Of a stretch of DNA of 49,897 bases, positions 987-49,826 are shown one piece after another. The notes beneath the pieces were generated by a model, which was given only the letters and a program-made list of their open reading frames with translations, was not told where the DNA came from and did no database searches. Made by a program: the position numbers and the translations under genes. This stretch comes from Escherichia phage JLBYU19, in sequence record OK272489.1; one strand, written 5' to 3'. Numbering within the stretch: position 1 is the stretch's first letter; every line of letters starts with the position of its first letter.

Positions 987-1463
987 TTAGCTATTCGTGC
1001 TGTTATCACCTTTGTAGAATCTTCCGCCTGGTTCGTAGTCTGAATTTTTGACTACGCGCAACATTTCGTATTTGTCGCAACGGGTAGTAAGAGGCTTGCC
1101 GTTAGAATCAAACCGCAGATCTGGACGACAAAACGAGGCGCGGTATCCTTTGCATCCATTATATTTGTAGTCGTTATGCACCTTTTGTGCTCCAGCGGCT
1201 GAAATCATACCACGCTTTCGCCATTGGTTAACGACTTGCTGAGATACGCGCAGACGTCGAGCCATAGCAGGAACACCGCCGTAATACTCGATCAGAATGT
1301 CAAGGCGAGATTTCAGGCTTGCTTTTACCTCATCTCGCAGGATAAGAAATCCGGTTCGGTGTTTTCGTGGCTTTTTGTCTTTACCTCGTCGCGTTCCGTT
1401 GTTACCGTTAATAGTGCGCTTGTCGATCTCACCCGTAGATACTGCAATTCGTGCATCTTTCAT
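987..1463 (-). CDS. putative HTH DNA-binding protein
   Basis: 158 aa, basic; RRLRVSQQVVNQWRKRG helix-turn-helix-like segment; GAGGTGA RBS; divergent from helicase gene. Confidence 0.5.
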   Translation of the reverse strand: MKDARIAVSTGEIDKRTINGNNGTRRGKDKKPRKHRTGFLILRDEVKASLKSRLDILIEYYGGVPAMARRLRVSQQVVNQWRKRGMISAAGAQKVHNDYKYNGCKGYRASFCRPDLRFDSNGKPLTTRCDKYEMLRVVKNSDYEPGGRFYKGDNSTNS

Positions 1464-1474
1464 CTAGTCACCTC

Positions 1475-1494
1475 ATAGCATTTTTTGTTAAAAC
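1475..1494 (+). promoter_or_regulatory. conserved junction element (variant ATAGCATTTTTTGTTAAAAC)
   Basis: TTGTTA at 1485-1490, TATTAT 22 nt downstream (1513-1518); precedes helicase gene. Confidence 0.55.
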
Positions 1495-1550
1495 AGTTTA
1501 TTGTAATGAGTCTATTATATACTCCAAATGGCATTTTTTAAAGGTTTAAG

Positions 1551-15634: not shown

Positions 15635-15663
15635 TGACGGTTAGCGCCAGGATTGTGATCGAA

Positions 15664-15753
15664 ATAATCAGAAGTAATCATTCGTAATCAAATCACGTCA
15701 AAATGATGATTGCCTTTGCAAATTTGATGAGAAAAGTAATCACGTTTAATCAT
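15664..15753. repeat. iteron-like short direct repeats (A/G)TAATCA
   Basis: ATAATCA 15665, GTAATCA 15674, GTAATCA 15684, GTAATCA 15736, TTAATCA 15747; first three spaced 9-10 bp. Confidence 0.5.
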
Positions 15754-15936
15754 TGGTTGCAGGGGAGATAGTGAAACCTTCCCCTCTTGCCTCACTTTTC
15801 CGCCTGGCTGTCAGTGGTTGTTGTCTTTTGTTCACCCCTGTTACCGATTTCAGGCGGCGTGTTTCCGCGCGGTTTTCCGGTGTAGCGAAAACGGAAAAAA
15901 CAAAAAAAATCCTATATAATACATTGAAAATAAAGA

Positions 15937-16075
15937 TTATTTATTTATATATATCTATAATGTTTTCTTTTTGTTCTCACTGTTACAGTGCTTTTTGTTG
16001 GGTGTGGTGTGGTTGTGTGTTGGTATATATGGATAGTTGCGCGCGCGGCGGATTGCATATGTATATATACTTTTT
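15937..16075. repeat. AT/GT-rich block homologous to 43926-44060
   Basis: TTATTTATTTAT(A/G)TAT... then TTGTTTT(C/T)TT.., GT-rich GGTGTGGTGTGG, ATGTATATATAC; same order in both copies. Confidence 0.55.
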
Positions 16076-16188
16076 CCGGCGGATTGCGTTAACAGCGTGA
16101 ACAGAAAAATAACAGCCCTGAAATCAACAACTTGCGCATGATTTTGTAGTTTTTCGATATTGGTAACGTTTTGAATACAACAAAAACA

Positions 16189-16216
16189 TTGACACGCACC
16201 AAATAGCTTTTATAAT
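16189..16216 (+). promoter_or_regulatory. sigma70-type promoter (consensus hexamers)
   Basis: TTGACA 16189-16194, 16-nt spacer, TATAAT 16211-16216; 32 nt upstream of ATG 16248. Confidence 0.6.
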
Positions 16217-16247
16217 GCGCCAACAGTCAACAACTGGAGGAAAGGAA

Positions 16248-16712
16248 ATGGAACAGAAGACCACTAAGGACTATTGCGATTGGCTTCGCGAGCTTGGTCG
16301 CCGCATGGCTAGTGGCGATATTGAAGAGTATAAAATGTCACTAATTGACCTGGCCGGAATGTTAAGCGGTGACGACTGCTACAAGATCACGCGCAGTTCA
16401 TCCTACAGCCGGACCATTATCAACCGCGTTCCAGAAGTAAGGGCCGCAGGTCGGGTAAGTATCAAGGTCGAGGAAACGGAAGATGATAAATTTTACGTTT
16501 TCCGCATGGTGCGCGAATCAAAAAGGAAAATCATCACACCCGAAGAATTGCCAGCAATCAAGGCAAGGGCGATCAAAAAGTTTGCCGATCGCTTACTGGC
16601 AGCAATCCCGAACATCGTTGACCTGGAAGGGGATAAACTGGCTGGAGCTTGTGAGGGCGTAAGCCGCTACCAGGATATGATCCGCGAAATCATCAAAGAG
16701 GAGGAGCAATAA
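16248..16712 (+). CDS. hypothetical early protein
   Basis: 154 aa from ATG 16248 (GGAGGAAAGG RBS), directly downstream of consensus sigma70-type promoter. Confidence 0.5.
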   Translation: MEQKTTKDYCDWLRELGRRMASGDIEEYKMSLIDLAGMLSGDDCYKITRSSSYSRTIINRVPEVRAAGRVSIKVEETEDDKFYVFRMVRESKRKIITPEELPAIKARAIKKFADRLLAAIPNIVDLEGDKLAGACEGVSRYQDMIREIIKEEEQ

Positions 16713-16837
16713 TGAAAAAGGCATTAATCGGCGTTTTGGCGGCAATGACACTCCTGAACGGCGGCGAAGGCACTAAGGTTATGGCACACGCTATGGTAAT
16801 GGCTGAATTTGAGGAAGTGAAAGATGAAAACAAATAA
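16712..16837 (+). CDS. hypothetical small protein (not in ORF track)
   Basis: 41 codons with hydrophobic N-terminus; GAGGAGG RBS. Confidence 0.3.
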   Translation: MKKALIGVLAAMTLLNGGEGTKVMAHAMVMAEFEEVKDENK

Positions 16838-17045
16838 GCGCGTCAAGCACAGGTTTACTGATAACCACGGCGACGCGATTGATGTATACAAGTTCGGCGA
16901 TCGCGTGTTTATTGATGGCACGTTTGAAGGTGGGCGTAGGCCGGATTTTAGGTCGATACTTACCGTTGACCAAGTGCGCAAGCTGGCAGATAAGTTAAAT
17001 GATCTGGCAGATGAAATAGAATACAAGCAAATCCATTTTAATTGA
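16824..17045 (+). CDS. hypothetical protein
   Basis: 73 aa; GAGGA RBS. Confidence 0.45.
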   Translation: MKTNKRVKHRFTDNHGDAIDVYKFGDRVFIDGTFEGGRRPDFRSILTVDQVRKLADKLNDLADEIEYKQIHFN

Positions 17046-17056
17046 TAGGTTTTATA

Positions 17057-17599
17057 ATGAAAAAATACACTTTCGAACTATGGGGCAAGAAGTACGAATT
17101 AATTACCAGCAAGCCGATTGTTATCGTTGACCTGGACGGCACACTATCGGACGGATCGCATCGTTTGCATTTGCTGCCAACTGAAAACTTGCACCTTACG
17201 GAATCGTGGAGCGAGTTTAACAGGGCCGCAGCAGGAGATTCACCGATTAAAAGCACGATCGCGATTGTTAACGGTTTGTGGGTGTCGGGATTTGCCATCG
17301 TCATCTTGACCGGACGCAGCGACGAGGTTCGCTACGAAACCTGCAAATGGTTGAATGAGAACGGCGTGAAGTTTGACGAAATCATCATGCGCCGCCAGGA
17401 TGACAACCGAAAGGATACGGTTATTAAAGAGGAAGCCTTGCGCGCTATCGGACTGGAAAACATTGTGTGCGCTTTTGATGATTCGCCGAACGTGGTTAAG
17501 CACTTCCGCAGCCTGGGAATCACAACCTATCAGGTCACGGAATACGACAAGCCGCACGCTCACATGCAATCTCACGGCGTGGAGGAGTTGCAGAAATGA
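17057..17599 (+). CDS. HAD-superfamily phosphatase (nucleotidase / polynucleotide 3-phosphatase-like)
   Basis: 180 aa from ATG 17057; DxDGT motif (VDLDGTLSDG) plus ILTGR and FDDS motifs. Confidence 0.65.
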   Translation: MKKYTFELWGKKYELITSKPIVIVDLDGTLSDGSHRLHLLPTENLHLTESWSEFNRAAAGDSPIKSTIAIVNGLWVSGFAIVILTGRSDEVRYETCKWLNENGVKFDEIIMRRQDDNRKDTVIKEEALRAIGLENIVCAFDDSPNVVKHFRSLGITTYQVTEYDKPHAHMQSHGVEELQK

Positions 17600-17805
17600 T
17601 CCTGAATGTAGCATATGCTAACCCTCGCGGCCGCAATATATACGGCTTTAAGGTTGGCGCGATGGTCAACGCCAGGATAAACGAAAAAGGCGTATTAGTT
17701 GTCAAGTCACCTAAAACTGGCATTGATATGCACATCAAGGAGAACGGCGGAAGATTGTTTATCAGGTCAATGTCTGGTCAAACGCTCGCAACTTTCACCA
17801 AATAG
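17596..17805 (+). CDS. hypothetical protein
   Basis: 69 aa; ATGA overlap with upstream gene; stop inside junction element. Confidence 0.45.
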   Translation: MILNVAYANPRGRNIYGFKVGAMVNARINEKGVLVVKSPKTGIDMHIKENGGRLFIRSMSGQTLATFTK

Positions 17806-17819
17806 CACTTTTGCAAAAA
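17801..17819 (+). promoter_or_regulatory. conserved junction element (variant AATAGCACTTTTGCAAAAA)
   Basis: TTGCAA variant; TATAGT at 17839-17844 inside GGGCTT/AAGCCC dyad. Confidence 0.55.
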
Positions 17820-17875
17820 CAGATTATCGGGCTTGCTGTATAGTAAGCCCATCAACAACAAGCGAGGATTAAATC

Positions 17876-18139
17876 ATGGCTAACAAGATCGAATTTTTCA
17901 AAGCGGTAGACATTATTGATGGCGCTCCTAGCTTCTTTGCCATCCATTCCATTGACGGCAAGGATATTGGGTACGACGTTATCCGTCGAGATGGAATCTC
18001 AAAACTTAGCGATCTGGTAGGGCATATTGTGTCAAACGGGAAATGCGCATGGCCCGATTCGCCACGAGAGCCACGCCGCCGCGACATGGTAGAGCCTGCT
18101 CTGCTTTACACTCTGGTAGTAGAAGGAGAAAATAAATGA
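17876..18139 (+). CDS. hypothetical protein
   Basis: 87 aa; GAGGA RBS after junction element 17801. Confidence 0.5.
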   Translation: MANKIEFFKAVDIIDGAPSFFAIHSIDGKDIGYDVIRRDGISKLSDLVGHIVSNGKCAWPDSPREPRRRDMVEPALLYTLVVEGENK

Positions 18140-18321
18140 TTTGGTTACTTGCTTTTTTGGTTGTTTTTCTTTACATTTCAGGCTTGTTTACGTTCCGCGC
18201 GTTGGTGAAATATTCTGACGCGACAGACAAGGACGATAAAATCGTTCTCGCTTTCTGGTTTGTTTGGGCGTGGTTAGCAATTTACGAGATCATTAGAGAC
18301 AAACAGAAATTTGAGTGGTGA
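18136..18321 (+). CDS. hypothetical membrane protein
   Basis: 61 aa with two hydrophobic segments; ATGA overlap. Confidence 0.4.
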   Translation: MIWLLAFLVVFLYISGLFTFRALVKYSDATDKDDKIVLAFWFVWAWLAIYEIIRDKQKFEW

Positions 18322-18380
18322 TTCTTGCTATGGCGCATTCATGCAGTGCGCCATGTTGAGAAAACCTAAAGGGGGAGACG

Positions 18381-18530
18381 ATGCGTAACTTTGAAAAAAT
18401 CATTACCAAAAAGAAGCGTCGCGGGTACGATGAGCATGTGGAGCTTGTGAAAAAGCAACGCAAGAAGCGCAACGAAGACAAGAAGCGCAGGAAAAAATTT
18501 AATGCGATTTTTCGCTATGGAGATCATTAA
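18381..18530 (+). CDS. hypothetical basic small protein (not in ORF track)
   Basis: 49 codons, Lys/Arg-rich; AAGGGGGA RBS. Confidence 0.35.
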   Translation: MRNFEKIITKKKRRGYDEHVELVKKQRKKRNEDKKRRKKFNAIFRYGDH

Positions 18531-18532
18531 TC

Positions 18533-19123
18533 ATGAAACGAGACATTATTATCCTTAATGGGCCGCCTGGCTGTGGAAAGGACACTATTGCAGCTTACCT
18601 AACGGGCCATCGTTACCCAGCGGTTAAGGCGTCATTCAAGCAGCCGATGTTCGATATTGCGTTTTCCATGCTGGGCGTGTACAGATACGATGAATTTATG
18701 GACCTGTACAACGACCGAGAACAAAAAGAAAAGCCTCAAGTTATTTTGGGCGGCAAGTCACCTCGACAATTCATGATCTGGATTAGCGAGGATGTAATGA
18801 AGCCAGTTTTTGGGGATCACTATTTCGGGCGTCGAATGGTTGAAGAGATTCACGAGATGTACCGAGATTTGGCGGTTGTGATCAGTGATGGCGGATTCCC
18901 CGAAGAAATCAAGCCGCTCGTTAAGGCGGGGCATGAGGTGCATATTTGCCGATTGCATCGCGACGGCTTCACGTTTGCTGGCGATTCGAGAGACTACATT
19001 GACCTGAGCGGTTATCACTATCGAATCCATCACTATGACTTCCACTTGCAGGACGGCAAGCCGGAACTGGCTGTAAACGAGATCGTCAATACTGTCAAAT
19101 GGAAGCACACACAGATTAAATAG
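18533..19123 (+). CDS. P-loop nucleotide kinase (dNMP kinase-like)
   Basis: 196 aa; N-terminal Walker A ILNGPPGCGKDT. Confidence 0.6.
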   Translation: MKRDIIILNGPPGCGKDTIAAYLTGHRYPAVKASFKQPMFDIAFSMLGVYRYDEFMDLYNDREQKEKPQVILGGKSPRQFMIWISEDVMKPVFGDHYFGRRMVEEIHEMYRDLAVVISDGGFPEEIKPLVKAGHEVHICRLHRDGFTFAGDSRDYIDLSGYHYRIHHYDFHLQDGKPELAVNEIVNTVKWKHTQIK

Positions 19124-19137
19124 CACGAATTGCTAAA
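19119..19137 (+). promoter_or_regulatory. conserved junction element (variant AATAGCACGAATTGCTAAA)
   Basis: TTGCTA variant; TATAAT at 19158-19163; GC dyad 19139-19157. Confidence 0.55.
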
Positions 19138-19193
19138 CGCGGGGTTATCGGCCCCGCTATAATGCGCACATCAACAATCAAGAGGAAATCACA

Positions 19194-19574
19194 ATGGTTA
19201 ACATCAGAAAAATTCGCGTCGGCACTAAATTCTTAGTTACTTACGCAATTCCAGATAGCGGAATGAAGAAGGGCCAGATTGTTAAGGTTGATAGCAAAAG
19301 ATTCGGAATCCCTGGCATCAATGGCTATCTAATCAATAAAGATCTTGGATTCGGCGGCTTCGCTATCCGTTCGCTTGATGGTATTGTTGCTACCCTCAAG
19401 CAAATCACTAACCATCGCGGCTGCCCAATCAAGACGATTAAAGCGCCAACCAATTACGGCAAACTGGATAATCGTCGAATCCGCCGCCTGGCGCGTAACG
19501 CGTTAAAATTCCGTGGCGTAGGCGATGATTTCTACTATGGTTACAAGAGGATCGCGCGCAATGCTGGGAAATAA
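19194..19574 (+). CDS. hypothetical protein
   Basis: 126 aa; AAGAGGA RBS after junction element 19119. Confidence 0.5.
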   Translation: MVNIRKIRVGTKFLVTYAIPDSGMKKGQIVKVDSKRFGIPGINGYLINKDLGFGGFAIRSLDGIVATLKQITNHRGCPIKTIKAPTNYGKLDNRRIRRLARNALKFRGVGDDFYYGYKRIARNAGK

Positions 19575-19673
19575 CAATAACGCAACGAATCCTAAGCCAC
19601 CTTTTGATTTTCATTCCGCAATGATTGCGGTATTATCAATGCTACTTTTTCTTTATAGCATGAGGGCGCCACT

Positions 19674-19922
19674 ATGGTTTTTAACGCATTGAAACGACTG
19701 TTTAAGCCGGAATACCGGATCGTATTTTGCCGAGACTGTTCTACTTATCATGTGCAGCGACGCAGCTTAGGCGGCAATTGGCACTATGTTACAGACGACT
19801 TTTTCGGCATTATTGCCACTGAATTTAAGTATTACAGCGATGCTTATATGTACGTCAAGAAGCGCCACCGCTTACGCAAGTGTCGTTTTTCCGTGCTGAT
19901 TCACGTTAATGATTGTTACTGA
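19674..19922 (+). CDS. hypothetical protein with Cys pairs
   Basis: 82 aa, basic; CRDC plus distal Cys residues. Confidence 0.4.
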   Translation: MVFNALKRLFKPEYRIVFCRDCSTYHVQRRSLGGNWHYVTDDFFGIIATEFKYYSDAYMYVKKRHRLRKCRFSVLIHVNDCY

Positions 19923-19929
19923 GGTTAAA

Positions 19930-20112
19930 ATGAAAACTGGTATTATTATTCTTTTCCTGATCCTTTTCGGCAGTCATTTAACCATTAACTACGATGGCAT
20001 TATGGCATTTTGGGGCAACTTGATGATGTTTGCCGCTGGTTCGATTGCTGGCTACTCTGACGGGAAAAAGGATGGCGTTCGCAAGATGCTGATGGGGCTT
20101 AAACAAAAATAA
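19930..20112 (+). CDS. hypothetical membrane protein
   Basis: 60 aa from ATG 19930 (GAGG RBS); two hydrophobic helices. Confidence 0.4.
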   Translation: MKTGIIILFLILFGSHLTINYDGIMAFWGNLMMFAAGSIAGYSDGKKDGVRKMLMGLKQK

Positions 20113-20123
20113 GGGGATCTGAA

Positions 20124-20414
20124 ATGGCAAACAAAACTTACCGCAAACTACTGGTTAACGCTTTTGAAAACATCGCGCAGTGTAACAAGTGGAACGACTC
20201 TAAACACTCGCCAGTCACAATGAAGCGCGCAGGATTCAAAAATGCTCGTTCATGGGCGCGAGCTTTCGCAGCTTGCTATATGCCGGATGGCGGACTAGGG
20301 GTGATGAACGATTTTTTGATCAACATGATAGAGGAAGCGGCGCGAGAGGATCGACCGCTGACACAGCGAGATTTTGACGACTTCGCGCGCGATGAGCTTT
20401 ACTATCTGAGCTAA
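20124..20414 (+). CDS. hypothetical protein
   Basis: 96 aa; AAGGGGA RBS; stop inside junction element. Confidence 0.45.
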   Translation: MANKTYRKLLVNAFENIAQCNKWNDSKHSPVTMKRAGFKNARSWARAFAACYMPDGGLGVMNDFLINMIEEAAREDRPLTQRDFDDFARDELYYLS

Positions 20415-20432
20415 TAGCACTTTTTGTTAAAA
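20413..20432 (+). promoter_or_regulatory. conserved junction element AATAGCACTTTTTGTTAAAA
   Basis: exact consensus; TAAAGT at 20452-20457 within AAGGGCA/TGCCCTT dyad. Confidence 0.6.
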
Positions 20433-20489
20433 CTTCCGCAAGGGCATTTGGTAAAGTGCCCTTATTGAAGCGAAACAGAGGAAAGCGCA

Positions 20490-20702
20490 ATGAAAATCAA
20501 AATCACCAAAATCGACACTGTCAACGGCGACGGATCAATCACTCTTGAGCAATGTGGCCTGGTTGTTGGTGATGTGCTGGAAGTTGACGGACATTTCAGC
20601 GACGGATCTTATTGTGTTATTGCGCCGCGTAACAGCGAGTTTATCAAGGCTGGCGACAATATTAGTGTTAACCATGACGAATGCGAGGTAGTAGAAGAAT
20701 GA
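20490..20702 (+). CDS. hypothetical acidic protein
   Basis: 70 aa; GAGGAAAG RBS after junction element 20413. Confidence 0.45.
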   Translation: MKIKITKIDTVNGDGSITLEQCGLVVGDVLEVDGHFSDGSYCVIAPRNSEFIKAGDNISVNHDECEVVEE

Positions 20703-20962
20703 TCACGATTAACCTGTCAGAGCAGCAAGCGCGCATTATGTTAGCGGCCTTTGGCTGGCGAGATGATGACGGCATCCAGGCAACGGTTAAAATTCCTGAG
20801 CAAGTGGCCCGTGAAGTTTTCAGCCAGCTAGAACACGCATTTGATCCTGCTGGGACTGAGCAAGCGGAAGCTGCCGCATGGTTCGGAGAGAATGGATACA
20901 GAGATCAGCAAGTCGAAAACTGGAAGCGCATAAACGAGACTATGGAGGAATCAGGTTTATGA
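20699..20962 (+). CDS. hypothetical acidic protein
   Basis: 87 aa from ATG 20699 (ATGA coupling). Confidence 0.45.
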   Translation: MITINLSEQQARIMLAAFGWRDDDGIQATVKIPEQVAREVFSQLEHAFDPAGTEQAEAAAWFGENGYRDQQVENWKRINETMEESGL

Positions 20963-21273
20963 TTTACATTCACTACTACCAAATCGGAACTAACGAGAAC
21001 AAGAAAGAGCATCGTTTCATCCATGATGATTTGGACAAGGCAAAGGCGCAGCAACAGGTTTTAGGAGGTGTCATTCAGGCTTTTGAGCCTGTAGAAGATA
21101 TTGAGTACCGCGAGCATTTAAAAGATGTTGTTATTGATGAGATCTCTTGCTTGATTGATGATATGACAAATCACGGCCCTGGTTCCCCGTGGGAAGATGC
21201 AGGATCTGTAACGTGGGATAAGGCCAAAGTTAAGACGCTAAACAACTTTCGAGAGATTCTCGACGGTTTTTAA
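20959..21273 (+). CDS. hypothetical protein
   Basis: 104 aa from ATG 20959 (ATGA coupling). Confidence 0.45.
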   Translation: MIYIHYYQIGTNENKKEHRFIHDDLDKAKAQQQVLGGVIQAFEPVEDIEYREHLKDVVIDEISCLIDDMTNHGPGSPWEDAGSVTWDKAKVKTLNNFREILDGF

Positions 21274-21343
21274 TTAAAAACGCATAGCCGTTAGAGCGCC
21301 TAAATCGCATTCTAACGAGCTATTTTTCTGGTAAGGTGATTTA

Positions 21344-21472
21344 ATGGATGAGTACAAACAACCCTCGCAATGGTGCAAAGAGAAGCAGGAGGAAGCACTT
21401 GAGCGCGGAGATGTAGAAGAAGCTATGAACTATTTCAAACTTGCGGAAGAATGGAAGGGGAGAGGATACTGA
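21344..21472 (+). CDS. hypothetical small protein (not in ORF track)
   Basis: 42 codons; AAGGTGA RBS. Confidence 0.3.
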   Translation: MDEYKQPSQWCKEKQEEALERGDVEEAMNYFKLAEEWKGRGY

Positions 21473-21702
21473 TGTTCGGCATGAACGAGGCGCAATTCAA
21501 CGCAGCTAAACGCCAGGCTAAAAAGTGCGGCGAGGCAATGAAAGCGGATGTGGAAAAGCGCGGGAAGTATGTTGATGAAGTAATGAAGGGAATCATTGCA
21601 GAACACTACCAGCCAATCGCGCCAATGTTGACGATCACTCAATTCATTTGGCTATGTGGTTACTTGCGCGGACGTTGGGGGAACGCTTTCGACAGGGAAT
21701 GA
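21472..21702 (+). CDS. hypothetical protein
   Basis: 76 aa from ATG 21472, overlapping upstream stop. Confidence 0.4.
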   Translation: MFGMNEAQFNAAKRQAKKCGEAMKADVEKRGKYVDEVMKGIIAEHYQPIAPMLTITQFIWLCGYLRGRWGNAFDRE

Positions 21703-21791
21703 TTGACAACTCTTTCCTGATTGGTTAGCATGGCGTCGTTTACATAAGAGCGGCTTTGTCCGAACGCGTGACGCGATAGTCACACAACAAC

Positions 21792-21850
21792 GGCGATATG
21801 CAGGAGGTTTTTGCAATGCAAAATAATCCGTAAGACGTATCGCCTTTTTT
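21792..21850 (+). terminator. possible terminator/attenuator (long-loop hairpin + T6)
   Basis: GGCGATA ... TATCGCC 7-bp stem enclosing about 39 nt, followed by TTTTTT. Confidence 0.3.
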
Positions 21851-21864
21851 AATGGAGATCCAAA

Positions 21865-22098
21865 ATGATTAAATACAAATTAACCGTTTCTTTCCGTGAT
21901 ACCGTTATTCATCCTTTCTACAATAGCTTTGTTAACAGCTTTACAGTAGAAGCGACAAGTGATCAGCTTGACGGTGACGAAACTTGCATTTCTATCGGCA
22001 ATGTTGCTTATCCGATTCACAACATTACCAGCATTAAGCGTGAGGTTGTCGCTGATGAATTACAAAGTGAAGATGACGATCCGGCGAATGGGGCGTAA
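21865..22098 (+). CDS. hypothetical acidic protein
   Basis: 77 aa; GGAG RBS; preceded by hairpin plus T6. Confidence 0.45.
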   Translation: MIKYKLTVSFRDTVIHPFYNSFVNSFTVEATSDQLDGDETCISIGNVAYPIHNITSIKREVVADELQSEDDDPANGA

Positions 22099-22240
22099 CT
22101 GCCAATCATGCAAACAGGAATATGAATGCGTAGTCGATGCTCTTGATGAACTGGAAGCAGTAGCAAAAGCAAAAGAGCAATCGGGCGCTAATCCTGAAAC
22201 ACATCAATTTTCAATTAATCTTGTGAGGGCTTTACAATGA
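22073..22240 (+). CDS. hypothetical CxxC protein (start uncertain)
   Basis: 55 aa in alternative frame, overlapping upstream gene by 26 nt; weak RBS. Confidence 0.25.
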   Translation: MTIRRMGRNCQSCKQEYECVVDALDELEAVAKAKEQSGANPETHQFSINLVRALQ

Positions 22241-22461
22241 TCGCATTATCTTTCTGCATTGGTTTTATCATGGCTATCATTATCTTTTCCGTTGTCATGC
22301 GCTTTGCTTATAAGTTCGTGATTAATAAAGGTTGGTACGCTTCTGCCATCTGGAGCGAAAAACAAAAGAAATGGCTTGTACGTGGTCAATACCTGATGAT
22401 CGGCAGCAAGATCCTAAATTCCATTCGAGCCAAAGATGGGAAAGTAAAATATACAGCTTAA
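22237..22461 (+). CDS. hypothetical membrane protein
   Basis: 74 aa; N-terminal hydrophobic helix; followed by intrinsic terminator. Confidence 0.4.
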   Translation: MIALSFCIGFIMAIIIFSVVMRFAYKFVINKGWYASAIWSEKQKKWLVRGQYLMIGSKILNSIRAKDGKVKYTA

Positions 22462-22465
22462 AAAT

Positions 22466-22490
22466 CACCCGCCGAACGGCGGGTTTTTTA
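22466..22490 (+). terminator. intrinsic terminator at end of early rightward block
   Basis: CACCCGCC-gaac-GGCGGG hairpin + T7. Confidence 0.65.
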
Positions 22491-29232: not shown

Positions 29233-29257
29233 CTGATAGCATAAAAAAACATTGCAC

Positions 29258-29276
29258 GTTTAACAAAAAGTGCTAT
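29258..29276 (-). promoter_or_regulatory. conserved junction element, oriented away from adjacent capsid gene
   Basis: plus strand reads GTTTAACAAAAAGTGCTAT; flanked by inverted repeat TGATAGCA (29234) / TGCTATCA (29271). Confidence 0.45.
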
Positions 29277-29282
29277 CATCTA

Positions 29283-29308
29283 GGCCGTTACATTTAACGG
29301 CCTTTTTT
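29283..29308 (+). terminator. intrinsic terminator immediately upstream of major capsid gene
   Basis: GGCCGTT-acattt-AACGGCC hairpin + T6, directly followed by GGAGG RBS. Confidence 0.6.
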
Positions 29309-29322
29309 ATGGAGGAAGCAAA

Positions 29323-32970: not shown

Positions 32971-33010
32971 CATTCCTGTAAAATCAATCTATCAAATAAA
33001 TTAATTCCAC

Positions 33011-33029
33011 TTTTAACAAAAAGTGCTAT
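33011..33029 (-). promoter_or_regulatory. conserved junction element, oriented away from adjacent tail chaperone gene
   Basis: plus strand reads TTTTAACAAAAAGTGCTAT immediately followed by AAGGAG RBS of 33044 gene. Confidence 0.45.
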
Positions 33030-33043
33030 AAGGAGATCTTAAG

Positions 33044-43807: not shown

Positions 43808-43925
43808 TGTTATTTTTTGTTTTCCGGTGTTATCGAATTTAAGACGGCGTAAATTTAGCGCAAAATTTAGACAACATAAGATCAATAAACAATCAATAAA
43901 ATAGATATATACATATAAAATCAAT

Positions 43926-44060
43926 AGTTTATTTATTTATGTATGTATATTTGTTTTTTCTTGTTATCTGCGTTTCTTGTGGTTTTGGTTGTTTGTGGTG
44001 ATTTTTCTTTCTGAGTATCTGTATGTGCCATCATTCATGTGTATGTATATAATCCGGCGT
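43926..44060. repeat. AT/GT-rich block homologous to 15937-16075
   Basis: TTTATTTATTTATGTATGTATATTTGTTTTTTCTTGTT, TTGTGGTTTTGGTTGTTTGTGGTG, GTGTATGTATATAAT. Confidence 0.55.
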
Positions 44061-44175
44061 ATCTGAGAGAACATGGGAACAAGAAAAATAACACACATTA
44101 ATCATTAACTTATGAGTCAAATCTGTTTTCTTGCCATCTGAGAACGTTTAGAAAACAGAAAAAACAAAACAGCTA

Positions 44176-44203
44176 TTGACTAAATCAACCAAGTGGCTAC
44201 AAT
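44176..44203 (+). promoter_or_regulatory. sigma70-type promoter
   Basis: TTGACT 44176-44181, 16-nt spacer, TACAAT 44198-44203; upstream of exonuclease gene. Confidence 0.55.
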
Positions 44204-44233: not shown

Positions 44234-45289
44234 ATGAGTGATTTTAACGCCTACACTAGCGAAGAAATGAGCAACGAGCTTTATCATGATCCTAACGCGT
44301 GGACGGCTGAATATGTCAGCGGTTCCAGCCTGGCGGAGATTTACAGCACTTGCCCGGCGTACTGGAAGTACAAGCCGCGCCAGGAAACTAAAGCACTTGT
44401 TTTCGGTACGCAGTCGCATACCAACTTTGAAAGCAAGGAGCTATTCGAAAAAACATATCGCCGCGCACCGTCGCAGGATGATTTTAAAGACCTGATCACT
44501 AGTCAAACGGCGTTAGCATCAAAGCTGAAATCTTTTGGCCTGAAAGGTACGACGGGTAAACAATACCCTGAATTACTGGAAATGCTGTACAAGTGCGGCG
44601 AGGATCTCAATGTGTGGTGGCTTATCGAAATGATGGCAGAATGCCAGGCCGCAGCGGACGGAGTGCAGTTAATAGACGCTAAAGATTATGATGCCTGTGT
44701 AGCGATGCGGCGCGTACTTGAGGCCATACCGGAGCATAACGCTTGCATGAACAGCCCAACCGCGCAGCGTGAAATGTCAATATTTGGGATCATCAACGGC
44801 GTAAAAGTAAAAGTGCGTCTTGATCACGTTGACGTAAACAAGGATGTAAAGGCAACAATCATTAACGGTTACGACGAAAAAGGCAGGCCGATTTATGAAG
44901 AAGTCACCTATCCAGAAGCGGTGATTATCACTGACTACAAAACAACGGTTAGCGCAAATCCGGTTGACTTCCAGCGCCTGGCTTACAATCACGGCTATTA
45001 TCTTAAAATGGCTTTGCAACATGACTTATTCAAAAAGGCGTATCCAGACGAGGAAAGGCCAGTGATTGTAAGATTGCTTGCTCAAGAGAAGAAAGAGCCT
45101 TACTTGCCGCTCGCATTCCGCATGAACATTGAGCAGTTGAAGATTGGGCGTATCCAGTACATGAGCGTGATCAACAAGTTTAACGTTTGCCAGCAGTTAG
45201 ATGAATGGCCTTCGTATGCAAACGGACAACCAGAAATTGATCTTGATACTCCTGATTGGGTACGTGCTCAATTCAGGCAGTATCTGTGA
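44234..45289 (+). CDS. recombination exonuclease (PD-(D/E)xK, RecE/YqaJ-like)
   Basis: 351 aa; RLDHVD ... ITDYKTT nuclease-type motifs; first gene after sigma70-type promoter; precedes Erf and SSB. Confidence 0.5.
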   Translation: MSDFNAYTSEEMSNELYHDPNAWTAEYVSGSSLAEIYSTCPAYWKYKPRQETKALVFGTQSHTNFESKELFEKTYRRAPSQDDFKDLITSQTALASKLKSFGLKGTTGKQYPELLEMLYKCGEDLNVWWLIEMMAECQAAADGVQLIDAKDYDACVAMRRVLEAIPEHNACMNSPTAQREMSIFGIINGVKVKVRLDHVDVNKDVKATIINGYDEKGRPIYEEVTYPEAVIITDYKTTVSANPVDFQRLAYNHGYYLKMALQHDLFKKAYPDEERPVIVRLLAQEKKEPYLPLAFRMNIEQLKIGRIQYMSVINKFNVCQQLDEWPSYANGQPEIDLDTPDWVRAQFRQYL

Positions 45290-45320
45290 CAAACTAAACA
45301 AATAGCTAAACTTTTATAAT

Positions 45321-45344
45321 GGTTGGTGATATAATTCACCAACC
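45321..45344. repeat. perfect 9-bp inverted repeat GGTTGGTGA-tataat-TCACCAACC
   Basis: palindrome directly after TATAAT at 45315-45320, 20 nt upstream of ATG 45365. Confidence 0.5.
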
Positions 45345-45364
45345 AGATAACGGGAGAATGAGAA

Positions 45365-45622
45365 ATGACAGATAAAGACAATGCCACATTATTGCATTTA
45401 GAACGATTCATTGATCGAGTAACCATTGCAATGAAAGAATTTATTAAGCCGATGAACATTAAAGAGTCGGAAGAAATGAAGACTTATATCAAGGACGTGG
45501 TTGCATCCATTGACAATGTTATCCTTGTTGCAACGATGAGCAAGGGAAACAAAGAGCGAGAGAGGTTGGTTGCTGAATCAACAGAAGAATTTATTAAAAT
45601 GCTTGAAAGCGAGAAGGAATAA
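45365..45622 (+). CDS. hypothetical protein
   Basis: 85 aa; GGGAGAA RBS. Confidence 0.45.
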   Translation: MTDKDNATLLHLERFIDRVTIAMKEFIKPMNIKESEEMKTYIKDVVASIDNVILVATMSKGNKERERLVAESTEEFIKMLESEKE

Positions 45623-46276
<654 letters not shown>

Positions 46277-46279
<3 letters not shown>

Positions 46280-46325
46280 TAAACGGGGCGCTTGCGCCCC
46301 TTTTGTCATAGGAGAAAACAAAATG
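46277..46325 (+). repeat. leader element shared with connector-gene leader (30616-30667)
   Basis: same stop-hairpin-TTGTCATA-GGAGAAAACAAA-ATG arrangement. Confidence 0.55.
46285..46308 (+). terminator. hairpin/attenuator in ssb leader
   Basis: GGGGCGC-tt-GCGCCCC followed by TTTTGTCAT. Confidence 0.4.
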
Positions 46326-46775
46326 CACGTTATTACAGGTGAGATTCGAAAAGAGCCAAAAGTAAAGCAAATGCCTAACGGCAGCACGCTATATGTTATT
46401 GAGCTTTCCGAGCGATACAAAGACCGAGAAGGAAATTGGCAGTATACAAACTATGTGTTTTTCTTTAACGCGAAAACAGACGGCCTGAATGGTTGGTATG
46501 CCGAGGCGTTCCAGGTAGGCAAGGTTGTTTCTGTTTCCTGCGATACCTTGCGAGTTGAAACGCGAGAATACAACGGAAAGATTTACAGCACCGTGCAGCC
46601 TGGCGGATTTGCAAACTTGCTATTTAGCCAGAGAGGTGAAAGCCAGCAACAATATCAGCAGCGAACGCAAGGAGGCTGGGGGCAACCACAACAGCAACAG
46701 CAACAAAATACTCAACAGCATCCGCAGCAAAGCAATCAGCCTCCGATTGACTTTGACGACGATATACCATTCTGA
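46323..46775 (+). CDS. ssb: single-stranded DNA-binding protein
   Basis: 150 aa from ATG 46323 (AGGAG RBS); Gln/Gly-rich linker and acidic C-terminal tail DFDDDIPF. Confidence 0.8.
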   Translation: MHVITGEIRKEPKVKQMPNGSTLYVIELSERYKDREGNWQYTNYVFFFNAKTDGLNGWYAEAFQVGKVVSVSCDTLRVETREYNGKIYSTVQPGGFANLLFSQRGESQQQYQQRTQGGWGQPQQQQQQNTQQHPQQSNQPPIDFDDDIPF

Positions 46776-46783
46776 TAACAAAA

Positions 46784-46810
46784 AGCCCCGCATATGCGGG
46801 GCTTTTTTTA
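46784..46810. terminator. bidirectional terminator between ssb and leftward fiber cluster
   Basis: AGCCCCGC-atat-GCGGGGCT hairpin flanked by A5 and T7. Confidence 0.7.
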
Positions 46811-47314: not shown

Positions 47315-47546
47315 TATACCTTCCGCTACCCAACTCGGATGATAGATCAGTTTGTTTTAGATACAGCTTCAACTTATTGTCAACATCAGTAGTTGATGCT
47401 TTTCCTGCGACATCCTGTTTTAGTGTCGAAACATCACTTTTCAGCTTCGTTATATCACCAGGAATAGTAGCAACATCCTGTTTTAGTGTTGAAACGTCAT
47501 TTTTCAGCTTCGTTATATCACTAGGTATAACAGTGACTGTAGCCAT
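47286..47546 (-). CDS. tail fiber-like coiled-coil repeat protein (possible upstream part of split fiber gene)
   Basis: 86 aa; two 21-aa repeats DITKLKxDVSTLKQDVA; overlaps next ORF by 29 nt in another frame. Confidence 0.45.
   Translation of the reverse strand: MATVTVIPSDITKLKNDVSTLKQDVATIPGDITKLKSDVSTLKQDVAGKASTTDVDNKLKLYLKQTDLSSELGSGRYSGSFYPPNW
47411..47526. repeat. tandem direct repeat, 2 x 63 bp
   Basis: CATCCTGTTTTAGTGTCGAAACATCACTTTTCAGCTTCGTTATATCACCAGG repeated with few substitutions 63 bp apart; encodes 21-aa repeat. Confidence 0.6.
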
Positions 47547-47558
47547 TTTCCTAACTCC

Positions 47559-47837
47559 TTAAGCCCATTCTCTAATAGGCTGATCTAACTCAACCACGTA
47601 TCCATTAAAAATTACGGCATCAAACTTATCATCAATGATTCGCACATTAACGAAATAGCCGTCGTTCTTTCGCGCAATCTCCTCGCCATCGTCAGATCGT
47701 GCAATTACTGTATAAGTATTGCCGATTACATCGAGCAGGATTGCATCCTGAATGGATTCGTTATCATCCCAATTAATTTTTCCTAAAAAGGCCGAAAACT
47801 CGGCCTTGTCTGAAAATTTTAATGTTAAATCACGCAT
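47559..47837 (-). CDS. hypothetical protein
   Basis: 92 aa from ATG 47837 (TAATG overlap with fiber gene stop). Confidence 0.4.
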   Translation of the reverse strand: MRDLTLKFSDKAEFSAFLGKINWDDNESIQDAILLDVIGNTYTVIARSDDGEEIARKNDGYFVNVRIIDDKFDAVIFNGYVVELDQPIREWA

Positions 47838-49792
47838 TAAACAATTTCCCCCAATTGATGATCTGTTAGTGCCTTGTGCCATATACGGAAGTTTCTAACG
47901 TGCCCGAAAAGATGACGTTCTCCCGTAGTTGTTTGTCCGCCAATCCTTATAGTAGCCGTCGATCTTATGTATCTCCATTCCGCTTTTGATTCGCTTGATA
48001 TTATGGAATTACTTACACAACAAGTATTGTAATCACTCTTTACTCTCATTCCCATGATCATCTTTTTTAGTTTCGCATTCTCGTAAACCCTTCGGTTTGA
48101 GTTACCTATGTCGCAACAAGGGAATCCGTCATTATCGCCTTCGGCAGACCCGAAAGCAAGAATTATTGCCGCTCCGGTTTGATGGCCGGATGTATCAAAA
48201 ACACGTGGCGCAGCGTTTGGCGTTATACTCCAGTTTTTATGAGCTTCCACAAGCACTGTAAACGGCAAATTGTAAAGGTTGTTTTTTATTGGCAATGTAA
48301 CCATATCGCTTGCCCTTGTTGTCGGACTTTCATTAGTTATAATGAATGATGAAGCGCAAGATCCAACCTCTACTTGAGGAGTTGTTAAATCCATAAAGCT
48401 ATTTTCATCAAAAACTTCTCCTTGTTTATTAACGACCTGTATTACCCCCCTAATGGAAGTTGATTCATCAGTAACTTTGTAAACTATTTCTGCAAAAATC
48501 CATTCCCCGTCTATGGTAGCGTTCTTTAGCACTATGTTTTTTGCGTCAACTCCAGAAGTTGCCACCCCTAAGTTATCGCAATCAATAATAGCAGAAGCAA
48601 CAGAAGATAAAGGATCTCCCTTGTCAAATCTTGCTGCAAATCTTACATTTTTCCCCTTAGCCCTAAAAGATATTGTAACTCCATCACCCTTTACAACTGC
48701 AATCTTATTTGTAGTAAGTCCAGCTATAATAGTGTAAGAGCCTACGCCACCTAAATATTCCCCTGGTTTAAATGTTGCATACTTAAACCCCCTTTCATCA
48801 GTCTTAGTTTCACCTCTTTCTAATCTTGGATTTGGATTCCATGATTCAGGCTTATTTGAATTTACAAAATAGTTTGTTCTCTGCCCTTCAATCAAAAGAC
48901 CATCCTTTTCAAATCTAGGTTCATCAATAGCAGCATCAGTAAGCAACCCAGACTTATTAATGTAAGTAGCGGTTGATGCACGTTTAAACTTAACAATCTT
49001 GTCACCTGGCATCGTGATCTCATCATCACCTATGACAATCTTTTTGTATGACGGCGAGAATCCGGTGATCATATCCAGGGAATCATTAAATGGTATCCAC
49101 ACGTCAGGTAGAGGCTGCAATAAATCTTTGTAAGGTTCTGCGGCCTGTTTTGCGTATTCCTCCGCTTGATCTCGCGCACTTTCAGCGCCTGCCTTTGCGG
49201 TGTTCGCAGCATCACGCGCAGTTTCAGCGCCTTTTCTTGCAGTTTCAGCGCCAGTCTTTGCAGTGTTTGCAGCGTCGCGCGCGGATTCAGCGGCAGCCTT
49301 TGCAGTGTCAGCACCTTTCTTGCTATTCTCTGCATTTGTTGCGCTTGTCTTTGCGTTATTCTCGCTAGTTTTAGCTGCCTTCTGGCTTGCTGCGGCTGCG
49401 TCAGCATTTGTCTTTACGTCTTCCTGGATCTTCTGTAGCTTATCCCAATCAAAATCCTTGATGATCTCAATAAATCCAGCAAACTCCGATTCCTTCCCCT
49501 GGTAATAACGCAACGTTTCCGCTACGTCTTGCGCAAGACCGTCAACCGTTAACGAGTCATGAAGCAAGATCAGGTAATTTGTCTTCTGTACTACCGCGCC
49601 TCCAGTAGTAATTGCGCGAATGCTTGTATCGCTAATCACTTCTGTAATCACAGCAGCTTGCAAAGGTTGAGCAAGAAAGAAAATAGTTGCACCTGGGCGA
49701 ATCAAGGTTAATTGCTCACGCCATTTTGTACCGTAACCAGTTACATAACCTTGCGCGTCCATAGACGCTTGGCCTTGTCTGTAAATCGCCAT
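47837..49792 (-). CDS. tail fiber protein
   Basis: 651 aa from ATG 49792 (AGGAGG RBS 9 nt upstream); Ala-rich repeat region TAKAAAESARDAANTAK. Confidence 0.65.
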   Translation of the reverse strand: MAIYRQGQASMDAQGYVTGYGTKWREQLTLIRPGATIFFLAQPLQAAVITEVISDTSIRAITTGGAVVQKTNYLILLHDSLTVDGLAQDVAETLRYYQGKESEFAGFIEIIKDFDWDKLQKIQEDVKTNADAAAASQKAAKTSENNAKTSATNAENSKKGADTAKAAAESARDAANTAKTGAETARKGAETARDAANTAKAGAESARDQAEEYAKQAAEPYKDLLQPLPDVWIPFNDSLDMITGFSPSYKKIVIGDDEITMPGDKIVKFKRASTATYINKSGLLTDAAIDEPRFEKDGLLIEGQRTNYFVNSNKPESWNPNPRLERGETKTDERGFKYATFKPGEYLGGVGSYTIIAGLTTNKIAVVKGDGVTISFRAKGKNVRFAARFDKGDPLSSVASAIIDCDNLGVATSGVDAKNIVLKNATIDGEWIFAEIVYKVTDESTSIRGVIQVVNKQGEVFDENSFMDLTTPQVEVGSCASSFIITNESPTTRASDMVTLPIKNNLYNLPFTVLVEAHKNWSITPNAAPRVFDTSGHQTGAAIILAFGSAEGDNDGFPCCDIGNSNRRVYENAKLKKMIMGMRVKSDYNTCCVSNSIISSESKAEWRYIRSTATIRIGGQTTTGERHLFGHVRNFRIWHKALTDHQLGEIV

Positions 49793-49807
49793 TTGTAAAA
49801 TCCTCCT

Positions 49808-49826
49808 AAATAGCACTTTTTGCTAA
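49808..49826 (+). promoter_or_regulatory. conserved junction element, oriented away from adjacent tail fiber gene
   Basis: AAATAGCACTTTTTGCTAA directly abutting AGGAGG RBS of minus-strand fiber gene; second AATAGCA at 49838. Confidence 0.4.

What the first reader, a model, noticed from the sequence alone, without database searches (positions are those of the whole stretch)
16189..16216. Consensus sigma70 promoters mark two early operons, unlike the element-type promoters elsewhere
TTGACA-N16-TATAAT (16189-16216) and TTGACT-N16-TACAAT (44176-44203) are near-perfect host promoters. They drive the 16248 operon and the exonuclease/Erf/SSB operon, which suggests these are immediate-early units read by unmodified host RNAP, with the element-type promoters acting in a later or separate class. 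Both also contain AATAGC between the hexamers.
Basis: partly seen in the sequence, partly recalled or inferred. Interest (0 to 1): 0.45.

Follow-up and report, generated by a model that had tools for sequence, protein, structure and literature searches.

The report
Conserved host-type promoters of T1-like phage
The two sites are real-looking, evolutionarily conserved promoters for the unmodified E. coli RNA polymerase in a T1-like phage. Equivalent sites were already predicted in phage TLS, so the finding is largely ordinary, and the claim that they fire first is plausible but untested.

Summary
The window is almost a whole T1-like phage genome (Drexlerviridae, Warwickvirus). Both motifs are exactly where reported. 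TTGACA-16-TATAAT (16189-16216) is the only perfect consensus in the window, with about 0.04 expected by chance. TTGACT-16-TACAAT (44176-44203) is unremarkable as a bare motif, but it is conserved in 39 of 40 distinct relatives, always with a 16-nt spacer.

The detail "both contain AATAGC" is wrong for site 2.

The "element-type promoters" are the published TLS 21-nt repeat. Here that repeat proves to be a palindrome centred near -42, followed 18 nt later by a -10 hexamer. This is the geometry of an activator-dependent promoter.

The early-versus-later split is plausible but too simple. At least three more conserved promoters with a -35 box exist:
- one before the Cro-like regulator gene;
- one before a structured RNA upstream of the small terminase gene (terS);
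- one before the late capsid gene.

No timing data exist.

Not described in the papers I could read: both promoters end paralogous ~310-370-bp cassettes. Each cassette has an IHF-consensus site and lineage-specific direct repeats.

The parts
16189..16216 (+). Promoter 1: TTGACA, 16-nt spacer, TATAAT. The spacer contains AAATAGC (16201-16207), which is the 5' half of the 21-nt element.
   Evidence: Syntenic promoters occur in about 14 lineages.
16217..16247 (+). Discriminator GCGCC, predicted start near A16223, leader and ribosome-binding sequence GGAGG. TATAATGCGCCA is identical to the corresponding 12 nt of E. coli rrnB P1.
   Evidence: The rrnB P1 sequence is taken from PMC7822876. The transcription start is inferred, not mapped.
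16248..22461 (+). Left-end operon of small genes (DUF7174 protein, polynucleotide kinase, dNMP kinase, many unknowns), ending at the terminator 22467-22484. It contains internal element promoters at 19119 and 20413.
15880..16188 (+). Upstream cassette 1: an AT-rich block, a GT-rich tract, TATATATA, CCGGCG, direct repeats, an IHF-like site and an A-rich stretch next to the -35 box. It is paralogous to cassette 2.
   Evidence: Local alignment z = 18 against shuffles.
16088..16115 (+). Direct repeats GTTAACAG / GTGAACAG / ATAACAG, with a period of 9-12 bp.
   Evidence: The repeat motif differs by phage lineage: GATTAACAC in T1, GATATACRC in Rtp.
16122..16134 (+). AATCAACAACTTG, a perfect match to the IHF core consensus WATCAANNNNTTR, preceded by an A-tract. 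It starts 67 nt upstream of the -35 box.
15640..15760 (.). GATT/TGAT-rich stretch. It resembles in composition the stretch around the ends of the T1, TLS and Rtp genome records, so it is a likely packaging (pac) region.
   Evidence: This is an inference from the T1 terminal-repeat annotation.
44176..44203 (+). Promoter 2: TTGACT, 16-nt spacer, TACAAT.
   Evidence: Conserved in 39 of 40 distinct relatives with an invariant 16-nt spacer.
43866..44175 (+). Upstream cassette 2, paralogous to cassette 1. Repeats GAGAACA at 44067 and GGGAACA at 44076.
44100..44112 (+). AATCATTAACTTA, an IHF-like core with one mismatch, starting 76 nt upstream of the -35 box.
44234..46775 (+). Exonuclease VIII (44234-45289), a small ORF (45365-45622), Erf (45626-46279) and SSB (46324-46775). 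Terminator at 46780-46807.
1514..1542 (-). Third -35-type promoter (TTTAAA/TTAAAA ... TATAAT), in front of the Cro-like HTH regulator gene. It corresponds to TLS P57.
987..1463 (-). 158-aa protein with a Cro/YdaS-type helix-turn-helix. It is the candidate binder of the 21-nt palindromic element.
   Evidence: Binding is inferred only.
1474..1518 (+). 21-nt element (1474-1494) plus the -10 hexamer TATTAT (1513-1518) of the helicase promoter. This -10 overlaps, face to face, the -10 of the regulator promoter.
21703..21731 (+). Fourth -35-type promoter: TTGACA-17-TAGCAT.
29252..29279 (+). Fifth -35-type promoter-like site, TTGCAC-16-TATCAT, before the capsid gene at 29323. The whole 21-nt element lies inverted within its spacer. 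It is followed by a hairpin plus a T-run.

Best explanation
Both sites are genuine promoters read by unmodified E. coli sigma70 RNA polymerase without any phage factor. Each has a -35 box (TTGACA/T), a 16-nt spacer, a -10 box (TAnAAT), a 'GC' start to the discriminator, an A-rich stretch just upstream of -35, and an IHF-consensus site about 100 bp upstream of the predicted start.

One promoter starts the left-end operon of small host-takeover and nucleotide-metabolism genes. The other starts the exonuclease/Erf/SSB recombination operon.

Together with a third such promoter, in front of a Cro-like regulator gene, they most likely form the first transcription wave. The roughly 15 'element' promoters lack a usable -35 box. 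They carry a palindrome, TAGCA-N5-TG(C/T)TA, centred near -42, and are most likely switched on afterwards by a phage DNA-binding protein, for which the Cro-like regulator is the best candidate.

Shown here: motif anatomy, conservation, geometry and synteny with published TLS predictions. Inferred: activity, timing, IHF binding, and the identity and sign of action of the element-binding factor.
For: Exact motifs and their rarity.

Site 2 across 37 distinct anchored sequences: -35 box 1.95 bits per position and -10 box 1.70 bits, against 1.08 for the spacer and 0.65-0.88 for the flanks, with the spacer always 16 nt.

Site 1: TTGAC(A/G/T), 16-17 nt, nATAAT then GC, found 610-690 nt from the leftward gene in about 12 lineages, and also present in T1, TLS and Rtp.

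Whole-genome scans: the exonuclease promoter ranks first in both T1 and TLS. The regulator promoter ranks second in T1 and fourth in TLS.

Published TLS analysis lists only three intergenic sigma70 promoters, P01, P51 and P57, at the same three syntenic places, and states there is no phage RNA polymerase or sigma gene.

Element promoters: in 57 of 73 copies from four genomes a -10 hexamer lies exactly 18 nt after the element, and 47% have an extended -10 (TGn). The TTG(C/T)TA inside the element is 22 nt from the -10, too far to act as a -35 box.

The regulator has a Cro-type HTH. Its promoter overlaps the helicase element promoter in every lineage examined except one locus (L122), where neither a comparable promoter nor the element was found.

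The operon gene content is typical of early genes. The T1 left DNA end lies 448 bp upstream of site 1.
Against: No transcript start or timing data for any T1-like phage were found.

The site-1 -10 box is weak in T1 itself (TAACAC).

A -35-type promoter-like site with a 16-nt spacer also precedes the late capsid gene, and another precedes a structured RNA near terS. So promoter type does not map cleanly onto timing.

Element promoters also occur inside the 'early' left operon (19119, 20413).

Nearly half of the element promoters have an extended -10 and might fire without any activator.

Site 2 is far from the DNA end.
Confidence: 0.6

Rival explanations
1. There are no temporal classes. Both promoter types are read by unmodified host polymerase from the start. 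The 21-nt element acts as an UP-like or -35-substitute sequence, or as a host-factor site, so the two consensus promoters are simply the strongest of one pool.
For: 47% of element promoters have an extended -10 (TGn), which can work without a -35 box. The TLS authors themselves suggest an UP-like role. Element promoters lie inside the left 'early' operon and in front of replication genes.
Against: The element is an imperfect 15-bp palindrome at a fixed phase, centred near -42. That is typical of a dimeric activator site, not of an UP element at -38 to -59. The other half of the element promoters have neither TGn nor a -35 box. A conserved phage HTH protein has its own -35-type promoter interlocked with an element promoter.
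Confidence: 0.2
2. The element is an operator for a repressor, like a 'stoperator'. Element promoters would be on early and shut off later, or kept low. The -35-type promoters would be the unregulated or late-persisting ones, which reverses the reader's order.
For: The regulator's HTH is Cro-like, and Cro proteins are repressors. The full element lies inside the spacer of the capsid promoter, and half-sites (AAATAGC) lie in the spacers of the promoters at 16189 and 46224 and of many site-2 relatives. Those are repressing positions. The TLS paper raises the stoperator idea.
Against: A site centred at -42, on promoters that have no -35 box, is the classic activating position. A repressor site placed on promoters that would be weak without it makes little sense. 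The factor may do both, as lambda cI does.
Confidence: 0.12
3. The main function of the two loci lies in the ~370-bp cassettes (replication origins, or recombination or packaging sites). The strong promoters would serve chiefly to activate those sites by transcription. This does not exclude a promoter function.
For: The two cassettes are paralogous in the window, in TLS and in T1 (z = 18, 8 and 13). Each has an AT-rich block, 2-3 direct repeats whose sequence changes with phage lineage, and an IHF-consensus site. This layout is shared by iteron-type origins. No origin is known for T1-like phages. Cassette 1 adjoins the pac-like region.
Against: There are only 2-3 short repeats. No initiator protein was identified: the DUF3987 helicase has no detectable DNA-binding match. 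The cassette layout equally fits an upstream activating region like those of lambda PL or Mu Pe. GC skew follows gene direction and does not help.
Confidence: 0.15
4. The matches are chance consensus hits with no function.
For: The site-2 motif alone is not enriched: 9 matches with up to 2 mismatches, against 6.0 expected.
Against: A perfect 12/12 match is expected about 0.04 times. Both sites sit 30-31 nt before operon start codons and are conserved, with fixed spacing, across three subfamilies.
Confidence: 0.02

Closest known systems
Predicted promoters P01, P51 and P57 of phage TLS (Kropinski, Misra and colleagues 2024, PMC11447400, Table S1)
   Same: The same three syntenic positions: the first gene of the left-end operon, the exonuclease gene and the regulator gene. 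The same TTGAC(G/T) -35 boxes. The same contrast with the 21-nt repeat aaATAGCACnnnTTGnTAAAA.
   Different: This window is from a different genus (Warwickvirus), and its site 1 is a perfect consensus. The TLS paper does not assign timing, and the passages I read do not mention the repeat's fixed 18-nt distance to a -10 hexamer, its palindrome, or the paralogous upstream cassettes.
E. coli rrnB P1
   Same: 16-nt spacer, a TATAAT -10 box, and the identical 12 nt TATAATGCGCCA including the G+C-rich discriminator. There is also an A/T-rich upstream region and a host-factor site further upstream.
   Different: The -35 box is perfect here (TTGTCA in rrnB P1). The upstream site matches IHF rather than FIS. 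The UP-element match is only partial. The start position and ppGpp/DksA sensitivity are unknown. Site 2 has GCACGC.
Strong early promoters of T7 (A1-A3), T5 and T4 that are read by unmodified host polymerase
   Same: Near-consensus hexamers, A-rich upstream DNA, no phage factor needed, and (for site 1) a location close to a DNA end. The comparison itself rests on my own knowledge.
   Different: Timing is not measured here. Site 2 is internal. T1-like phages never switch to their own polymerase.
T4 middle promoters (MotA box), Mu Pm and late promoters (Mor/C), lambda PRM (cI at -42): analogues of the 'element-type' class
   Same: A sigma70 -10 box plus a phage-factor site replacing or overlapping the -35 region. 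The dyad is centred near -42. The comparison is from my own knowledge.
   Different: No factor has been demonstrated. The candidate is a Cro-type HTH protein unrelated to MotA or Mor. Many copies also carry an inverted repeat that brackets the -10 box.
IHF-stimulated phage promoters (lambda PL with a distal UP element, Mu Pe)
   Same: An IHF-consensus core with a 5' A-tract about 100 bp upstream of the start, followed by A-rich DNA. The comparison is from my own knowledge.
   Different: IHF binding is untested. The site belongs to a much longer, duplicated cassette.

Membership tests
Sigma70 -35/-10 promoter | -35 hexamer close to TTGACA | tested here: met
   6/6 at 16189 and 5/6 at 44176.
Sigma70 -35/-10 promoter | -10 hexamer close to TATAAT, with A at position 2 and T at position 6 | tested here: met
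   TATAAT (6/6) and TACAAT (5/6).
Sigma70 -35/-10 promoter | Spacer of 16-18 nt | tested here: met
   16 nt at both sites. Invariant at 16 nt in 39 of 40 site-2 relatives.
Sigma70 -35/-10 promoter | Placed upstream of a gene, leaving room for a leader and ribosome-binding site, and conserved at the orthologous place | tested here: met
   30-31 nt separate the -10 box from the ATG, with GGAGG or AAGGAG between. Synteny across three subfamilies.
Sigma70 -35/-10 promoter | Polymerase binding and a mapped transcription start | not testable with these tools
   No transcript data were found for T1-like phages.
Immediate-early phage promoter class | Transcribed without phage protein synthesis, before the other classes | not testable with these tools
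   Only indirect support: complete host-type anatomy, operon gene content, and no phage RNA polymerase or sigma gene reported.
Immediate-early phage promoter class | Located on the DNA that enters first or lies near a genome end | tested here: inconclusive
   In T1, site 1 lies 448 bp from the left end and inside the 2.8-kb terminal repeat. Site 2 is internal. The direction of DNA entry is unknown.
TLS-type 21-nt repeat ('element') promoter | Full aaATAGCACnnnTTGnTAAAA element, 18 nt upstream of the -10 box | tested here: not met
   Neither site is among the 13 full copies. Site 1 has only AAATAGC in its spacer, and site 2 has none on the + strand.
rrn P1-like, kinetically tuned promoter | 16-nt spacer plus a G+C-rich discriminator | tested here: met
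   Site 1 has TATAATGCGCCA, identical to rrnB P1. 'GC' follows the -10 box in most relatives at both sites.
rrn P1-like, kinetically tuned promoter | UP element, start 9 nt from the -10 box, short-lived open complex, ppGpp/DksA control | not testable with these tools
   Only an A-rich stretch from -37 to -46 is visible.
IHF-assisted promoter | WATCAANNNNTTR core with a 5' A-tract at a conserved upstream position | tested here: met
   Perfect at 16122 and one mismatch at 44100. Present 42-90 nt (mostly 66-90) upstream of the -35 box in 18 of 26 cassettes, against about 0.02 expected per 25-nt window on one strand.
IHF-assisted promoter | IHF binding and an effect on transcription | not testable with these tools
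   No tool available here can test binding or its effect on transcription.

The most novel reading that the evidence does not exclude
T1-like phages run a two-tier program entirely on host sigma70 polymerase.

Tier one is a handful of rrn-P1-like -35-type promoters. Two of them are embedded in duplicated cassettes that carry an IHF site and iteron-like repeats, and these cassettes may double as replication origins. One of the tier-one promoters makes a Cro-like protein.

In tier two, that protein activates about 15 promoters from a palindrome centred at -42. It also represses -35-type promoters that carry the same site, or a half-site, in their spacer. This includes its own promoter, through a face-to-face overlap with the helicase promoter.
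Probability: 0.3. Interest if true: 0.5.

Novelty: already known. Interest (0 to 1): 0.28.

Why it matters
T1 is a classic phage whose gene-expression program was never worked out. If confirmed, the result is a concrete wiring diagram that can be tested directly: which promoters need only the host enzyme, which need a phage factor, and which protein that factor is likely to be. The two promoters themselves are ordinary. Their counterparts in phage TLS have already been published.

Tried and rejected
- Literature searches for time-resolved transcription of T1-like phages found nothing usable. The only RNA-seq hit concerned a T5-like phage.
- The Rtp genome paper is not held in the library. The T1 RefSeq record annotates terminators and the terminal repeat but no promoters.
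- Rfam gave no hit in the whole window, nor in 21650-21900 at a loose threshold. There are no tRNA genes.
- A search for relatives using the first gene of the left operon gave only 2 loci, so I anchored site 1 on the leftward neighbouring gene instead.
- I considered that TTG(C/T)TA inside the element acts as a -35 box. I rejected this because it lies 22 nt from the -10 box.
- I considered that the GTGAACA repeats are P4-type iterons bound by the DUF3987 helicase. The literature search was unproductive and the protein has no PDB match. This remains a lead from memory only.
- I considered that AAATAGC in promoter spacers is a core promoter feature. I rejected this because its distance to the -10 box varies and it is absent from many relatives.
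- I did not run a structure prediction for the regulator. The profile search against the PDB already gave a Cro-type HTH.

Full report
**What the window is.** The 49.9-kb window is nearly a complete T1-like phage genome. It is 96-97% identical to Escherichia phage FritzSarasin and its relatives (Drexlerviridae, Tempevirinae, Warwickvirus). [quoted passage not shown]

**Observation.** Both motifs are exactly as reported.
- Site 1 is TTGACA (16189-16194), 16 nt, TATAAT (16211-16216). It lies 31 nt before ATG 16248.
- Site 2 is TTGACT (44176-44181), 16 nt, TACAAT (44198-44203). It lies 30 nt before the exonuclease ATG at 44234.

Site 1 is the only perfect match in the window and ranks first in a weight-matrix scan. 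About 0.04 perfect matches are expected by chance.

Site 2 is not unusual as a motif alone. There are 9 matches with up to 2 mismatches against 6.0 +/- 2.6 expected, and it ranks tenth in the matrix scan.

The remark that both carry AATAGC between the hexamers is right only for site 1. Site 2 has it only on the other strand, overlapping the -35 box.

**Conservation.** I fetched 43 loci encoding relatives of the exonuclease, at 57-100% protein identity. Of 40 distinct upstream sequences, 39 have TTGAC(T/A), exactly 16 nt, then TAnAAT-like, at the same place. Information content is 1.95 bits per position in the -35 box and 1.70 in the -10 box. It is 1.08 in the spacer and 0.65-0.88 in the flanks.

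Site 1 was anchored on the leftward neighbouring gene. In about 12 lineages, TTGAC(A/G/T), 16-17 nt, nATAAT followed by GC lies 610-690 nt from that gene. T1, TLS and Rtp have a promoter at the syntenic place too, although T1's -10 box is weak. In whole-genome scans the exonuclease promoter ranks first in both T1 and TLS.

**What is already published.** The 2024 TLS paper found "only three intergenic sigma70-like promoters". Its supplementary table places them before gene 01, before the exonuclease gene and before the regulator gene. These are the same three syntenic positions seen here.

There are 13 copies in the window with up to 3 mismatches, against 0.01 expected. So the core of the finding repeats a published in-silico result. 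The paper leaves the function of the repeat open.

**Anatomy of the element class.** I examined 73 copies from the window, T1, TLS and Rtp.
- In 57 of them a -10-like hexamer (TATAGT, CATAAT, TATAAT and similar) follows the element after exactly 18 nt.
- 47% have an extended -10 (TGn).
- The element is an imperfect palindrome, TAGCA-N5-TG(C/T)TA. Its centre falls near -42.
- The TTG(C/T)TA inside it is 22 nt from the -10 box, so it cannot serve as a -35 box.

This is the geometry of a class II activator site or of a T4 MotA-type promoter (a comparison from my own knowledge). The two classes therefore share the sigma70 -10 box and differ in the upstream half.

**A candidate factor.** The 158-aa protein encoded at 987-1463 on the minus strand has a Cro/P22-Cro-type helix-turn-helix. 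Its gene has its own -35-type promoter at 1514-1542 on the minus strand, with a strictly conserved -10 box. That -10 overlaps, face to face, the -10 of the helicase element promoter. The helicase element also lies in the regulator's leader, next to its ribosome-binding site. This arrangement holds in every lineage examined except one locus, L122. It would let the factor turn on the helicase promoter while shutting off its own gene. This is inference.

**Why the simple early/late split fails.** At least two more conserved -35-type promoters exist.
- The first is TTGACA-17-TAGCAT at 21703. It precedes a conserved structured RNA about 0.8 kb upstream of the small terminase gene.
- The second is TTGCAC-16-TATCAT at 29252, before the major capsid gene. 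The whole element lies inverted in its spacer, and a hairpin plus T-run follows. T1 and TLS have the same layout.

In addition, element promoters occur inside the left "early" operon. The element's 5' half, AAATAGC, lies in the spacers of the two best-scoring promoters in the window (16189 and 46224) and in many site-2 relatives. This hints that the same factor represses -35-type promoters, but single half-sites are weak evidence.

**Surroundings.** Both promoters sit at the right-hand end of long divergent intergenic regions. The ~310 nt upstream of each are paralogous to one another, with local-alignment z = 18 in the window, 8 in TLS and 13 in T1. Controls against other regions give z of about 1.

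The shared blocks, in order, are:
- an AT-rich stretch;
- a GT-rich tract;
- TATATATA;
- CCGGCG;
- 2-3 direct repeats, which are GTGAACA here, GATTAACAC in T1 and GATATACRC in Rtp;
- an A-tract plus an IHF-consensus core;
- A-rich DNA abutting the -35 box.

The IHF core is a perfect AATCAACAACTTG at 16122 and has one mismatch at 44100. It is present at a conserved distance in 18 of 26 cassettes.

Site 1 also shares TATAATGCGCCA, the 16-nt spacer and the G+C-rich discriminator with rrnB P1. This suggests a very strong promoter that is sensitive to growth rate. That is speculation.

The T1 reference record marks a terminal repeat at 1-2800, so the mature left end lies 448 bp upstream of the T1 site-1 promoter. 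A GATT-rich stretch of the same character is found in the window at about 15640-15760, to the left of cassette 1.

**Verdict.** The promoters are almost certainly real and are conserved. "Immediate-early" is a reasonable but untested label, and the two-class scheme is incomplete. The finding itself is already known from TLS. The cassette paralogy, the IHF sites, the -42 geometry and the interlocked regulator/helicase promoters are not described in the papers I could read. They give a testable model, at moderate confidence.

Noticed in passing
window 15880-16188 and 43866-44175: The ~310 nt upstream of the two promoters are paralogous, colinear cassettes (z = 18). The same paralogy holds within TLS (z = 8) and within T1 (z = 13). 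Their function is unknown: an upstream activating region, a replication origin, or both.
   Followed up: partly
window 16088-16115 and 44067-44093; L002, L004: Each cassette has 2-3 direct repeats with a 9-12 bp period. The motif changes with phage lineage: GTGAACA here and in TLS, GATTAACAC in T1, GATATACRC in Rtp. This suggests that a co-evolving phage DNA-binding protein recognises them.
   Followed up: partly
window 21703-21864: A conserved -35-type promoter (TTGACA-17-TAGCAT) is followed by a structured RNA of ~110-130 nt. The RNA has an invariant 5' ACAnAnGAG and a last loop of CCGTAA. RNAalifold predicts 13 pairs, 8 of them with compensatory changes across 7 lineages. In this group it ends in a terminator-like hairpin plus T6, just before ATG 21865. 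There is no Rfam match. It could be a leader, a small RNA, or an antitermination RNA for the late operon.
   Followed up: partly
window 29252-29322: Before the major capsid gene there is TTGCAC-16-TATCAT with the whole 21-nt element inverted in the spacer. It is followed by the hairpin GGCCGTTACATTTAACGGCC plus T6, then the ribosome-binding site. T1 and TLS have the same layout. Rtp has a -35-type promoter there without the element.
   Followed up: partly
window 1474-1542: The regulator promoter (minus strand) and the helicase element promoter (plus strand) overlap face to face at their -10 hexamers. The element lies in the regulator's leader, next to its ribosome-binding site. This is conserved in every lineage examined except one locus (L122).
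   Followed up: yes
element promoters in the window (e.g. 20413, 10440) and in L002-L004: 27% of element promoters have an exact inverted repeat of 6 bp or more that brackets the -10 hexamer, for example GGGGTA..TATAGT TACCCC. The stems covary. Shuffled controls give 2.6%. Other copies have a GC hairpin inside the 18-nt gap (3963, 5034, 8298, 11134, 19119). This is unexplained.
   Followed up: partly
window 46224-46300: TTGACA-18-TAAAAT is the second-best promoter score in the window. It has AAATAGC in its spacer and lies inside the 3' end of the Erf gene. A hairpin plus T-run follows (46285-46300), before the SSB start at 46324.
   Followed up: no
window 45300-45336: After the exonuclease stop codon there is a truncated element, AAATAGCTAAAC, followed by TATAAT and a hairpin whose loop holds a second TATAAT.
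   Followed up: no
window 15640-15760: A GATT/TGAT-rich stretch. It resembles in composition the stretch where the T1, TLS and Rtp genome records begin and end. T1 annotates a terminal repeat at 1-2800. This is the likely packaging (pac) region.
   Followed up: partly
window 33010-33043: An inverted copy of the element directly abuts the ribosome-binding site of the gene at 33044. T1 has the same arrangement and TLS lacks it. There is no room for a leader, so it is probably not a promoter for that gene.
   Followed up: no
window 47407-47529 and 49176-49301: Tandem 63-nt (21-codon) repeats, at 90% and 76% identity. At least the second pair lies inside the minus-strand tail-fibre gene (47837-49816).
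   Followed up: no
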